NCBI GenBank assembly: GCA_951406725.2 | Contig: OX597815.1 | Span: 44,826,001 to 44,890,000, forward strand | DNA: 64,000 nt | Direction of reading: 5' to 3' | DNA from: Octopus vulgaris | Taxonomy: Eukaryota | Shown here: piece after piece, positions 50,633 through 60,232 of the stretch | Numbering within the stretch: position 1 is the stretch's first letter | Layout: the number at the start of each line of letters is the position of its first letter | Notes under the pieces: generated by a model | What the model was told of the DNA's origin: nothing | What the model saw: only the letters and a program-made list of their open reading frames with translations | Database searches by the model: none | Position numbers and translations under genes: made by a program

Positions 50633-51376
50633 GGTAGAGAAGTCTCAATAAAAGATGAAAGTAACTATACAAGGAAGTAATATTTATCGTTACATCAATA
50701 TGACTGTTCGACGTTACTATTGTTTTAACCCTAGGCAGATCTTCTGCCAGCTGGCTGCCGGTGCAACATGCACCCTGTATATATTGCATCAAGGGAGCGA
50801 ACCCCTAGCATCCTCTAGCAAACGATGCTCAATATGACGCACAGTGGGACCGAACGGTTTTGGCCTAGTTGTGCTCATCTGGAGAATGGTAGGGGTTCGC
50901 TCCTCTGCTTGCAATATATACAGTTTTCACGTTGCACCGATAACCAGCTGCCGGATTATCTGCCTAGGGTTAAAACGGTAGTAACGTCTAACAGCCATAT
51001 TGATGTGATGATAAATATTACTTCTTAATATAGTTACTACTTTAATCTCTTATTCAGATTTTTCTGACTAGCTATTTTGCCTGTTACAAAATTAGTCACC
51101 GATGGTCGCTTAATTTCGTATATATTGCGAGCTAAAGCGAATCCCTGCTAGTTCTAGCAGTCGGGTGTTCACGATTAAAGATGTGCACACGTTGCGCGAA
51201 ACCCTTCGGTCTCGTAATCCCGTCGTCTGCTGGAGGTTGGTAGGGGCTCGCTCCCATGCTTACAATATATAAGGGGTGCAAGTTGCACCGGTAACCAGCT
51301 GGTAGAAGATCTGCCTGGGGTTAAAACGGTACTAACTTCGAACAGCCATATTGATGTTGCGATAAATATTACTTCC
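50633..51376 (+). mobile_element. Retrozyme-like element: ~351-nt monomer in partial tandem plus an inverted copy
   Basis: Inverted arm 50633-50825. AACCAGCTG recurs at 50942 and 51293 (offset 351). HHR at 51171-51215. Confidence 0.78.
51171..51215 (+). ncRNA. Hammerhead motif with decayed core
   Basis: ACGA-UUAAAGA-U-GUGCA-cacgu-UGCGC-GAAA-CC-cuuc-GG-UC-UCGU. All three stems pair; the core differs from CUGAAGA at two positions. Confidence 0.65.
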
Positions 51377-51379
51377 GTG

Positions 51380-51772
51380 TGAGTGTGTGTTTGTGTATGT
51401 GTGTGTCTTTGAGAATGTATTTTCCCCCTCCACCACTTGACAACTGGGGCTGGTGTGTTTATGTCTCCGTAACCTTAGCAGTTCCGCAAAAGAGATCGAC
51501 AAAATAAGTACCAGGCTTTAAAACGAAACGTATTGGAGACAGTTCTTCAAGGCGGTGTCTGTATTTGCCCCCCCCCCCCCAGCTCTGCTTGACAATCAGT
51601 GTTTGTGTGTTTACATCCCTGTAACTTAGCGGTTCCGCAAAAGAGACAAACGGAAATAAGTACTCGACTTGTAAAAAAAATAAGTCCTGGGGGGGCCGAC
51701 TTCATCGACTAAAATAGCTTTCAAAGTAGTGGCCGCAGTCAATTTATTGAAATAAGTAAAAAGGTAAAAGAA
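51380..51772 (+). mobile_element. Two tandem 3' halves of the major SINE family
   Basis: CTTGACAA..GTAAC(C)TTAGC..TTCCGCAAAAGAGA occurs twice. Confidence 0.75.
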
Positions 51773-52159
51773 TATATATATATATATATATATATATATA
51801 TATATACATGGGATCCGGACAAAAGACCCCTAGGGCAAAGGCCCCACGGACAAGAACCCCATAGTTAAAGTGTGAAAGTGGACAAAGTCCTCTCGGAAAA
51901 ATGCCCCACGGTTATATTTTTCGGTTATTTTTTTTTTTTCGTTTTTTTTCTTTTTGCTTGTTGCAGTCATTAGACTGTGGCCCCATAAAATGAAGGGTGA
52001 GGGAAATAACATTGAATAATGTAGTCCTAGATACGCGATGCTCGAAAAAAGACGAGATTGTCACGGCTGGAATTCTTTTGACAGCGGATATATCCTGTTG
52101 ATTAGAGATGATATGAACAACAAAAACAATAACAACATCGAAAATACAAACTTAACATT

Positions 52160-52551
52160 TACTCTTTTGCCCTTTTACACGTTTCAGTCATTTGACTGCG
52201 GCCATGTTGGAGCGTCGCCTTTAGACGAAGAAATCGACCCCAGGACTTATTCTTTATAAGCCTAGTACTTATTCTATCGGCTCTTTTGCCGAACCAGTAA
52301 GTTTTGGGGACATAAACACACTAACATTGGTTGTCACGCGATATTGGGAGCACAAAGACATACACAAAGACACACACATAAATATATATCCATATATTTA
52401 TATACACGACGGGCTTCTTTCAGTTTCCGTCTATCAAATCCACTCACAAGGCTACAGTAGAAGACATTTGCTCAATATGACGCATAGTGGGACTGAGCCC
52501 GGAACCATGTGGTTGGGAAGCAAGCTTCTTACCATATAGCCACGCTTGCGC
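52160..52551 (-). mobile_element. SINE (major family)
   Basis: Reverse complement of the 62995-63362 family. Confidence 0.88.
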
Positions 52552-53167
52552 AATATTTTTTTTTATCTTGGTTCTCTGCATTTCACAATATCAATTCTTC
52601 TCATTCACTGACCTATGCTAACAAGTAGCAATGGATCCTATTATAAGAAAGAAAGAAAGAAAGAAAGAAGTTGAAATAAACAATAAAGGGAATGTTTATA
52701 TTGGGTTGCTATATTTTTAGTATAATGGTTACGGGTTTGCAGAGGAGAAGTTGTAACTCTGCTATACGTTACATACATATCAAATAACAAGTATAACCAT
52801 GAAAAAACCAAGTAAACAAATCTATTATGATAGTAATCAATGAGCTATCATGTACCAAATATAACGTCATCGGTGGTGTAGGAGTAAACTTAGTCTTTTC
52901 TCGTACAGAAACAGCCCCTATTTAAATGAATTTTACGGTGTGTAATAAAAAAAGATAACTTGCAAAAGCGTAACAAAATATATTTATTCAATGAATGGAA
53001 AACACTGTGATTTAAATAGAAAATAGAAATGAAAGGAAAACATTTGTAATTTAAATAGAAAATGAAAAAAATTCACGAGTTTTTTTAGAATAATTTGGTT
53101 CCAATGTTGTGCATTGCAAACGACTGACCACAGGCTCAAACTAAAACACTCCTTTTCTCTTTCCTCG

Positions 53168-53512
53168 TATCATCATCATCATCATCATTGTTTAACGTCC
53201 GTTCTCCATGCTAGCATGGGTTGGACGGTTCGACCGGGGATCTGGGAAGCCAGAAGGCTGCACCAGGCTCCGGTCTTATCTGGCAATGTTTCTACAGCTG
53301 GATGCCCTTCCTAACGCCAACCACTAGTGGGTGCTTTTTACGTGCCACCTGCACTGGTGCCAGGCGAGGCTGGCATCGGCCACGGTCGGATTGGTGCATT
53401 TTATGTGCCACCTGCACGGAAGCCAGTCGAGGCGGCACTGGCCTCGGCCACGATTCGGATGGTGCTTTTTACGTGCCACTGACACGGAAGCCAGTCGAGG
53501 CGGCGCTGGCAT
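53168..53512 (-). mobile_element. RTE-related non-autonomous retroposon with internal ~65-bp tandem (x3)
   Basis: (TGA)n tail on the minus strand; GGTTGGCGTTAGGAAGGGCATCCAGC is RTE-5'UTR-like; GGTGC(T/A)TTT(T)A(C/T)GTGCCAC occurs three times. Confidence 0.65.
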
Positions 53513-53746
53513 ATCTATGTTTTAGGCGACATATACATTAATAGGAAATAGTTGTTTATGGTGATGTTACTGATGTTAGTATGTAAACTATAAAACCGGT
53601 AATTAATCATATATAGTAGAATGGCAATGCTAATGTTCAAGTGACATATTTATTTATTCGAGATGTATATATATATATATATATATATATATATATATAT
53701 ATATACACTGGCGAAAATAATTTAAGACCGATTATAAAAGTTCTAT

Positions 53747-58245: not shown

Positions 58246-58316
58246 GCTCTGGTAGTCAACTGGTTACGACACTGTGTTGTAGCCGACGTATCCCTGGTTC
58301 GAATCCAGTCCAACTT
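58246..58316 (+). pseudogene. tRNA-His-like pseudogene
   Basis: Resembles metazoan tRNA-His (TGGTTA..GTTGT(A)GCCG..GGTTCGAATCC). The acceptor and anticodon stems are broken; a T-run follows. Confidence 0.5.
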
Positions 58317-58407
58317 TTTTTTTGGTGGTGGGGACATCGTCCAATTCCTCCCACCAGAAAAGCCGGTAGTGAGACAATTAGACAGATTTGTTCAAATTTT
58401 TAGTATA

Positions 58408-58908
58408 CGAGAGTTACCCAAAAGTAACTGGAAATGTTCTTTGTGGGACAAGCCTGTTCTAGTTCGGGCTTCCACCGCTAGAAGGCACTTGATGTGACCG
58501 TCAGGCATCAGTCTGGCAACCGACGTCATCTGGTGCAATCATACTAATACGTGGTACGTCTTTGCTTTACAGTGTTTCTCCTTTGTTCGTCGATTTTTGC
58601 GATAGCTGTTTTCTGTTGGGGAAAACAGCGGTTGAAACAGTTGTCATGCTTCAAACAGCTTACAAGGACGCTGCCATGAGCAAAACACAAGTTTACGAAT
58701 GGTTTTCACGCTTTAGGAATGGTCACTTTGTCGCTTGAAGACCAACCACGTTCAGGGTGACCGAACGAATAAAAACATCACGAAAATTTATGAACTGATC
58801 TTGGAGGACCGTCACCGAACAGTTGACGAACTTTTTGATATTACTGATGTGTGAACGAATTTTGAGCGAGGAATTGGGAATGAAAAGAGCTGCAGCGAAA
58901 TTTGTGTC
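58408..58908 (+). mobile_element. Mariner 5' fragment
   Basis: TA|CGAGAG.. TIR start; 'LGKTAVETVVMLQTAY..SKTQVYEWFSRFRNG..LEDQPRSG..LGMKRAAAKFV'. Confidence 0.9.
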
Positions 58909-58924
58909 TACTCATATATATATA

Positions 58925-59716
58925 TATAATATAAATAATATATAAATATATGCATATATATATATACATATATGTACATACCTACATATATATGTATATA
59001 TACATGCATATATTGGTACAGGACATCAAAAGCACGTGGACTGAATGATAAACGAGAACATAAAAAACAAAAACATAGAAAACGAACTTTTTTTCGAACA
59101 ACAACAAAAAGCAGAGAAACGAGACATGCAACATGAAGAACATTCCCTTCATCAGTTTTATCTACTCCGCGGTCCGAAGGTAAGGACAAGATGCGATTTC
59201 GTTAAAACAGTCCTTCCCGCGAAGCAAATTAAATAAAATTTGGGAATTTTTGCGGAGGGTTATAGTGGTAACAAAAGCGGAACTGTGAGAACAAAGCAGT
59301 AAAACAAACGGTGAGGGATGTTAAACCAAGTCGGTGTGAAGTGGTGTACGCTAGGAAAAACGAACTTTGAGAAGAGACAGATAAAAGCACGTCTTCTCTA
59401 TAGGAAGGAAGTGGAAGAAAGAGAGAAGGCCGTTGGTCACCTGTGAGCAACCAAAGTCGAGGAGGAAGAGTGAGAGAGAAAGAGGGAACGGTGAAGGGGA
59501 GAGGAGAAGAATAGGGAAAGGGTGAGAGAGAAAAACAGAAAGGAAGAACAAGAGAGGGAGATAGATAAACTGAAAAGAGATAGAATAAGTGCGTATCGTA
59601 ATTATTAAGATAAAACTTACTTGGAAAATGATGTGTGGCGCTCGATCATATAATAATATATAAATATATGCATATATACATATATACATACATACATACA
59701 TACATACATACCGACA
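58925..59716. mobile_element. Second copy of the ~790-bp repeat
   Basis: Colinear with 9405-10250. Confidence 0.8.
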
Positions 59717-59743
59717 TATATATATATATATATATATATATAT

Positions 59744-60232
59744 ATCACCTGGGGCTAAAAGCAACAGTAACACCCCCACCACCCCGCCCTGTCCCTAGCC
59801 ACATTCAGATGGCTGATCCCCCTTACGTTGTCGAGCAGTTATTGTTTATATCTCGTTCAGAGATTTATTATTGTTTTCAGACGGTTTTTCTACATCAGTG
59901 ACGGTAGTTACTGTGAAAAACCTTATATATGTTGCCTGTAGAGGGAATCCTTCAGCGAAGAGCGGTGCTTACCATGCGTTGATAAGAGGCAATGACCTCG
60001 AAACCGGTCCGTATGTAGTATTCGTTTCTTCGAGGGAGGATGACCTGCCTTTGCAGGCAAACAAGGACACTGAGATGGTGTCAGCCCTTCTGGTGACGTT
60101 GATGATCGCCTGGGGCTAAAAGCAACAGTAACACCCCCACCACCCCGCCCTGTCCCTAGCCACATTCAGATGGCTGATCCCCCTTACGTTGTCGAGCAGT
60201 TACTGTTTATATCTCGTTCAGAGATTTATTAT
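59744..60232 (+). mobile_element. Retrozyme-like element: 361-nt monomer, about 1.35 tandem copies, in (TA)n
   Basis: 128-bp direct repeats at 59744-59871 and 60105-60232 (2 mismatches) flank an intact HHR. Confidence 0.88.
59973..60015 (+). ncRNA. Intact minimal type-I hammerhead ribozyme (U3-A8 core)
   Basis: CAUGCG-UUGAUAA-GAGG-caauga-CCUC-GAAA-CCGG-UC-CGUAUG: 6-bp stem I, 4-bp stem II, palindromic stem III ACCGGU, GUC site (predicted cut after 60009). Confidence 0.88.

What the first reader, a model, noticed from the sequence alone, without database searches (positions are those of the whole stretch)
50942..60232. Unnamed covarying RNA module downstream of the hammerhead
Three families share a motif that, where an HHR is present, starts about 75-80 nt after the cleavage site. 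Outer stem AGCC/GGCU (53861, 60083) vs AACC/GGUU (50942, 51293); inner stem GGAGA/UCUCC vs GGUGA/UCGCC vs GGYAGA/UCUGCC; then AAAA. A long-range helix follows: ACAGUAAC/GUUACUGU (53900-53907/53967-53974; 60124-60132/60199-60207) vs GUAGUAAC/GUUACUAC (50978-50985/51033-51040). It encloses AGCCAYAUU and is followed by a terminal AUCUC..GAGAU-like hairpin. Compensatory changes occur in three helices. The 53.7 and 59.7 kb insertions both end just after the terminal hairpin. Inference: an RT recognition/priming signal, or a second functional RNA domain that I cannot assign to a known class.
Basis: partly seen in the sequence, partly recalled or inferred. Interest (0 to 1): 0.75.

Follow-up and report, generated by a model that had tools for sequence, protein, structure and literature searches.

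The report
Copy-start RNA fold in ribozyme repeats
Thousands of small self-cutting-RNA repeats in this animal genome share a conserved folded RNA segment, and inserted copies end at two fixed points in and just after it, so it likely tells a borrowed Penelope-type copying enzyme where to start.

Summary
The motif is real. It is a ~135-nt fold in the 3' half of 346-363-nt hammerhead repeat units (non-LTR retrozymes). Its core pattern has 14,306 genome hits against 24 for the control. A tree-aware test supports two helices by compensatory change (P1 inner, P2; p 0.004-0.02). P3 is conserved but shows no same-branch events, and the terminal hairpin is not supported. Insertion ends are not random. 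Nine of 10 inverted two-arm insertions pair one of each. This matches the Penelope 'tail' and the two internal RT starts shown in vitro for Poseidon (PMC11167929). Best reading: an RT recognition/initiation signal used in trans. Against it: no autonomous element carrying the fold was found, and the local Neptune-like elements have two ends without it. No Rfam family matches and no paper searched describes the fold. The scan noted the two start points before, on other DNA of this genome. Verdict: new variant of a known kind.

The parts
50636..50815 (-). Inverted arm of the family C insertion; carries the module (about 50756 to 50636) and ends in the site-2 zone next to (TA)n
   Evidence: self-BLAST; CM hit 105 bits; end class (L061)
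50942..51062 (+). Module, family C, internal copy of a 351-nt tandem unit; inner P1 stem decayed; P2 50978-50985/51033-51040
51175..51211 (+). Degenerate type I hammerhead core of family C; predicted cut after 51211
   Evidence: read from sequence, position; activity untested
51293..51375 (+). Module, family C, truncated at site 1 (no P2 3' strand, no terminal hairpin)
53732..53746 (+). Left copy of a 15-nt target-site duplication of the family A insertion, inside the left inverted repeat of a Tc1/mariner-like element
   Evidence: inverted repeats
53747..53860 (-). Inverted arm of the family A insertion, ending at site 1
53861..53993 (+). Complete module, family A: P1 53861-53891, P2 53900-53907/53967-53974, P3 53926-53943, site 1 near 53958, P4 53979-53993; the arm ends at site 2 near 54003
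54004..54018 (+). Right copy of the 15-nt target-site duplication
59746..59870 (+). 5'-truncated module, family B, first part of a 1.35-unit tandem (period 361 nt) in (TA)n
59893..59955 (+). Spacer with conserved promoter-like motifs; its 3' end is the position where Tx1 LINEs insert in other copies
   Evidence: unit comparison; insertion site; promoter role inferred, not tested
59979..60009 (+). Type I hammerhead core, family B, with minimal palindromic stem III; predicted cut after 60009
   Evidence: activity untested
60083..60232 (+). Complete module, family B; site 1 after 60190; the insertion ends at site 2 (about 60229-60232) into (TA)n

Best explanation
The module is a conserved, covarying RNA fold in hammerhead repeat units whose genomic copies end at two fixed sites in and just after it, and it likely serves as the binding and start signal for a Penelope-type reverse transcriptase-endonuclease supplied in trans. 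Shown: the fold (P1 and P2 by covariation, P3 by conservation); two end sites ~42-55 nt apart; two-arm insertions that pair a site-1 arm with a site-2 arm of the same subfamily; 11-15-nt target duplications; scattered 5' ends; copies longer than one unit. Inferred: the unit is transcribed, cut by the hammerhead into monomers and probably circularised, so the template would have no usable 3' end. A probably dimeric enzyme would bind P1-P3 and nick both DNA strands 11-15 nt apart in AT-rich or (TA)n DNA. It would prime one strand at site 1 and the other at site 2, copy toward the RNA 5' end (around the circle for tandem copies), and join the two cDNAs head to head. The partner is unidentified; the young Neptune-like families of this genome are the likeliest.
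For: Ends: in a positional sample, 28 of 54 terminal copies stop at site 1 and 19 at site 2 (windows chosen after seeing the data). In divergent family H, found later and not by the pattern, 15 of 21 pieces that stop short of query position 283 end at 227-233, its site 1, and 4 of its two-arm loci read as site 1 plus site 2. Arm pairing: 9 of 10 positional two-arm insertions have one end of each kind and none has two alike; among 32 BLAST-selected cases, 20 are s1/s2, 1 is s2/s2 and 0 are s1/s1. Arms are 0.90-1.00 alike vs a median of 0.51-0.63 for other copies. TSDs of 11-15 nt at 7 non-microsatellite targets. Covariation: P2 has 6 same-branch compensatory events vs null 1.75 (p 0.005, 46 copies), or 5 vs 1.24 without the hand-placed family H (p 0.0035). 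Inner P1 has 6 vs 2.4 (p 0.02) or 6 vs 1.9 (p 0.0045). On a plain MAFFT alignment, 30 cells show double changes vs 12.5 shuffled. Precedent: Poseidon from Anolis starts RT internally at two sites that bound the tail, cuts and extends both strands, is predicted to be a dimer, and needs RNA on both sides of the first start (PMC11167929, parts 1-2 of 4 read). The inverted arm plus an optional tail on one end is the described PLE layout (PMC8557442 and PMC3846280 passages).
Against: No autonomous element carries the fold. CM hits in 16 RT loci, 30 GIY-YIG loci and 14 further PLE loci were, where inspected, separate insertions and not the element's own end. The intact Neptune-like families N1, N2 and N6 have their own two ends about 38 nt apart without P1-P3, so two ends do not need this fold. 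P4 has 0 compensatory events, and only 1 of 7 internal-branch changes keeps a pair. P3 has 0 same-branch events, and outer P1 has 1-2. The distance from P4 to site 2 differs between families (about 5-15 nt in A/B/D/E, about 20-25 nt in C, F, H), so P4 does not measure out site 2. No chimera joining a module arm directly to an autonomous PLE was found. Nothing is shown at the bench; expression and circularity in this species are not shown.
Confidence: 0.68

Rival explanations
1. The fold has another RNA-level job: stability or protein coating of the circle, control of the hammerhead, or 3'-end formation of an snRNA-type transcript. The start sites would then be set by short local sequence that merely lies inside it, and site 2 could be the natural RNA 3' end just before the next promoter.
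For: Autonomous families make two ends without the fold. N6 shares only local features: a TTAC-like motif before site 1 and a small hairpin in the tail (resemblance by eye, no CM score). Promoter-like motifs begin 10-15 nt after site 2. PMC7229834 (discussion read) argues that the hammerhead in the circles must be blocked by something other than self-pairing.
Against: P2 brackets site 1 in every family examined, including H, and site 1 keeps its place about 8 nt before the P2 3' strand despite variable linker lengths upstream. Copies of several units pass through site 2 and still end there. In Poseidon, added 3' sequence did not move the dominant start.
Confidence: 0.2
2. The module is read as DNA: the endonuclease recognises the tail region, or the ends arise when a DNA intermediate is resolved.
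For: PMC11167929 reports that the D. virilis endonuclease needed the tail on plasmids, and PMC8557442 ascribes the tail to EN-mediated resolution.
Against: Compensatory changes and G-U pairs on the hammerhead strand (P1: 37 G-U cells vs 7 A-C cells; not independent counts) point to single-stranded RNA. In vitro RT starts match the tail ends in Poseidon.
Confidence: 0.07
3. The module is a second ribozyme or a nuclease signal that cuts the RNA at sites 1 and 2, and RT primes at the resulting 3' ends.
For: Conserved unpaired bases (asymmetric P1 loop, 8-nt P3 loop) would suit a tertiary fold.
Against: No Rfam match. Site 2 is ragged over about 8 nt. Independent cut RNAs should also give s1/s1 and s2/s2 pairs, seen in 0 of 10 positional cases and 1 of 32 selected cases.
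Confidence: 0.05

Closest known systems
RT-initiation region of Poseidon from Anolis carolinensis (PAc; Frangieh et al. 2024, PMC11167929, parts 1-2 of 4 read)
   Same: Downstream of a type I hammerhead; two starts bounding a tail; AT-rich targets; both strands used; a signal of about 150 nt spanning the first start.
   Different: The PAc signal lies in the ORF's first 172 nt and is described only as an AC-rich stem loop, with no covariation model in the parts read. Here it is non-coding, has four helices, the tail is 42-55 nt rather than 30-40, and site 1 is about 180 nt after the cut rather than about 90. Supplements were not seen.
Metazoan non-LTR retrozymes (Cervera and de la Pena 2020, PMC7229834, passages and discussion read; Li et al. 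2026 bioRxiv 10.64898/2026.07.22.740005, parts 1-3 of 5 read)
   Same: Non-coding tandem units of about 350 nt with one type I hammerhead each; mussel units are 350-390 bp; PLE mobilisation is proposed.
   Different: The parts read give only MFE folds and no conserved second domain, insertion-end map or start sites. Copies here are mostly short dispersed partial tandems with inverted arms.
PLE pLTR with optional 30-40-bp tail and inverted 5'-truncated copy (PMC8557442, PMC3846280 passages; PMC4209133 part 1 of 4)
   Same: Insertion anatomy, TSDs (8-10 bp in rotifer, 11-15 here), minimal hammerheads including the U3-A8 core variant.
   Different: No ORF is linked to these units, and the fold is absent from the autonomous families examined.

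Membership tests
Non-LTR retrozyme | Non-coding tandem unit of a few hundred nt with a type I hammerhead per unit | tested here: met
   24 distinct units of 346-363 nt (one of 330) with the cut 94-104 nt before the anchor; H unit 360 nt
Non-LTR retrozyme | Self-cleavage and circular RNA in vivo | not testable with these tools
   only contigs of runs guessed to be RNA were available
PLE-mobilised element | Partial tandems, inverted 5'-truncated arm, optional tail on one end, TSD | tested here: met
pLTR of an autonomous PLE | Unit continuous with an RT + GIY-YIG ORF | tested here: not met
   no such link in 16 + 30 + 14 PLE-ORF loci nor in module loci; only best-scoring candidates were sampled, all Neptune-like; Poseidon, Hydra and Naiad were not searched
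PAc-type RT initiation signal | Two start sites bounding the tail | tested here: met
   genomic ends as proxy
PAc-type RT initiation signal | Region required for RT binding and internal initiation in vitro | not testable with these tools
   needs a biochemical assay
PAc-type RT initiation signal | Structural homology to the PAc stem loop | not tested
   the PAc sequence and supplements were not fetched
Any Rfam family (ribozymes included) | Covariance-model match | tested here: not met
   best E 3.3 and 0.63 on the two module regions; none of the 150 listed of 211 window matches reaches gathering

The most novel reading that the evidence does not exclude
Retrozymes evolved their own RT-recruiting RNA domain, absent from the autonomous partner, that lets an endless circular RNA capture a Penelope RT-endonuclease dimer and present two start sites at once. 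Each insertion would be made by twin internal priming from one RNA. This would be the missing cis element of the retrozyme life cycle and a portable start signal for PLE enzymes.
Probability: 0.35. Interest if true: 0.8.

Novelty: new variant of a known kind. Interest (0 to 1): 0.58.

Why it matters
How animal retrozymes are copied is an open question: a PLE partner is proposed but the cis signal is unknown (PMC7229834; bioRxiv 10.64898/2026.07.22.740005). For PLEs themselves only one in vitro system exists in the papers searched. This gives a defined, covariation-supported RNA of about 135 nt, two mapped start sites, natural compensatory variants, and three young candidate enzymes in the same genome, so the question becomes directly testable. 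The near-strict site-1/site-2 pairing of inverted arms also bears on how PLE inverted repeats and tails form.

Tried and rejected
Rfam: no meaningful match. Protein-coding constraint: rejected, since units have no ORF and linkers vary by non-triplet lengths. The RRM-like/CCHC ORF between two units (L033) first looked like the partner's ORF1; it is a Tx1-type LINE inserted with its own TSD. GIY-YIG or RT pieces next to module copies (L265, L148, L225, L308, L243, L191) are separated by (TA)n or other DNA and were read as co-targeted insertions (the last two loci from BLAST coordinates and printed flanks only). The first covariation run mis-registered the P2 5' strand and was discarded; searches stopped part-way and were rerun. 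MAFFT misaligned P1 in A2, so RNAalifold found only P2 and P3; P1 was tested by motif anchoring, with 5 of 46 copies dropped for lack of a parse. Metagenome scans: 0 hits, then 25 hits with no CM support (best E 0.05). Expression: no RNA holder listed; contigs of four runs guessed to be RNA cover the unit but cannot show ends, strand or circularity. No solved structure matches the N1 protein. Literature searches that found no description of this fold; bioRxiv supplements and the PAc supplements were not seen and could bear on this.
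Full report
Context. The window lies in a 2.8-Gb, 227-contig genome rich in (TA)n and other microsatellites. That it is octopus-like is my inference and the wording of earlier scan notes. The stretch 50.6-60.3 kb holds three independent insertions of a hammerhead-bearing repeat.

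Observation. I name them P1 (outer 4 bp, asymmetric loop, inner 5-7 bp), P2 (8-bp long-range helix), P3 (hairpin with an 8-nt loop inside P2) and P4 (terminal hairpin). The module starts 73 and 81 nt after the predicted cuts. Rfam has nothing for it.

What carries it. DNA searches gave 2097, 2679 and 1141 first-look candidates for the three window families, with 40 scored each. A pattern for the P1-P2 junction has 14,306 hits against 24 for the reversed control. Clustering of 240 copies gave four large groups and many small ones. Further large families F and H were met later; H does not match the pattern. Tandem units measure 346-363 nt with one hammerhead each and no ORF. This fits the non-LTR retrozymes of PMC7229834 (passages and discussion read) and of the 2026 preprint (parts 1-3 of 5).

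Covariation. On a MAFFT alignment of 29 copies not fitted to the structure, 87% of cells pair. Double changes occur in 4 of 8 P2 pairs, 2 of 5 P3 pairs and 0 of 5 P4 pairs; 30 cells vs 12.5 shuffled, although the number of pairs with a double change does not exceed the shuffles (158 of 500 reach it). RNAalifold recovers P2 and P3 only. To allow for kinship I counted compensatory changes on the same tree branch in 46 dereplicated copies. P2 has 6 vs null 1.75 (p 0.005); P3 and P4 have 0. Without family H, whose P2 strand I placed by hand, P2 has 5 vs 1.24 (p 0.0035, 40 copies). Inner P1 has 6 vs 2.4 (p 0.02, 41 copies) or 6 vs 1.9 without H (p 0.0045); outer P1 has 1-2 events. This is my own parsimony test, not R-scape. 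So P2 and inner P1 are supported, P3 is conserved, and P4 is unproven.

Ends. I fetched the first 100 pattern hits on contig 1 as a sample not chosen by similarity. For the three clusters with a run-through reference (63 copies; family F and the small clusters were left out), 9 run on into the next unit and 54 stop. Of those, 28 stop at site 1 (peak 8 nt before the P2 3' strand), 19 at site 2 (33-40 nt after that landmark) and 7 elsewhere, one of which is really a run-through (binomial p 4e-42 against uniform, windows set after seeing the data). Family H is an out-of-sample check: 15 of 21 short pieces end at its site 1, with a tail of about 52 nt. 5' ends are scattered, and 8 of 40 reach past the putative start site into the previous unit, so templates are multimeric or circular. 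In two-arm inverted insertions, 9 of 10 positional cases pair site 1 with site 2; the tenth is a divergent family without a good reference. The 32 BLAST-selected cases, which are biased toward a site-2 arm, give 20 s1/s2, 1 s2/s2 and 0 s1/s1. The arms come from the same subfamily, and TSDs are 11-15 nt. The window's A insertion (TSD 53732-53746 / 54004-54018) and its C insertion show this pattern.

Comparison. PAc starts RT internally at two sites that bound the tail, extends both strands and is predicted to dimerise (PMC11167929). The tail and inverted arm are standard PLE anatomy. The module therefore works like the PAc initiation region; membership by structure was not tested.

Partner. Young intact RT + GIY-YIG families exist: N1, N2 and N6. 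They carry the Cys-linker motif typical of Neptune (description; no tree built). They have hammerhead-like motifs and two ends about 38 nt apart but no CM match to the module. No direct chimera was found. This is the main weakness. Either the partner was not sampled, or the fold is a retrozyme invention; in the latter case P1-P3 may serve another purpose (rival 1). That newt satellite 2 uses an snRNA-type promoter is recalled, not read; only listed papers.

Verdict. A real, apparently undescribed RNA domain (searches) at the place where a known mechanism predicts a signal: new variant of a known kind, interest 0.58. Earlier scan notes had already classed these repeats as Penelope-mobilised retrozymes and proposed two fixed start points. 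They are leads, not support. The covariation model and the end counts here are my own tests.

Noticed in passing
L138 (G000:C1:21247000-21256900), L033/L137, L139, L140, L207, L249-L273: Tx1-type LINEs (ORF1 with RRM-like and CCHC motifs; ORF2 endonuclease, RT, zf-RVT) insert at one homologous site just 5' of the hammerhead in several unit families, with about 13-nt TSDs. By reading, 25 of 26 3' ends join a hammerhead unit and the other joins a second LINE at the same site; the query included about 12 nt of target. The scan has reported this before; no paper held all terms.
   Followed up: partly
L121, L126-L129, L304-L306: Intact Neptune-like PLEs carry a separate upstream ORF1 of 430-535 aa with no Pfam match (N1 and N2 tested), although EN+ PLEs are described as single-ORF; N2 forms 4271-bp tandems.
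   Followed up: partly
L285, L303, L308 (N6 3' end): The N6 tail resembles the module's 3' part locally (TTAC-like motif before the first end, small hairpin, then AT-rich sequence); by eye only, no CM support.
   Followed up: partly
window 53706-55660: Tc1/mariner-like DNA transposon with ~210-bp inverted repeats; it hosts the family A insertion. The transposase-like middle was judged by eye only.
   Followed up: no
window 50826-50878: A short piece resembling the SINE-like repeat at about 52470 sits between the two arms of the C insertion (seen by eye).
   Followed up: no
window 50077-50600 and 56573-56746: Two further palindromic insertions: a ~520-bp inverted pair around (TA)n and a ~175-bp hairpin repeat with a relative near 43000.
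   Followed up: no
window 59893-59955 and homologues: The spacer between tail and hammerhead has a conserved motif about 60 nt and a TATA-like motif about 30 nt before the Tx1 site, like a small-RNA promoter.
   Followed up: partly
L265, L148, L243, L191: Module copies often abut 5'-truncated Neptune-like copies across a short (TA)n, showing shared target use.
   Followed up: partly
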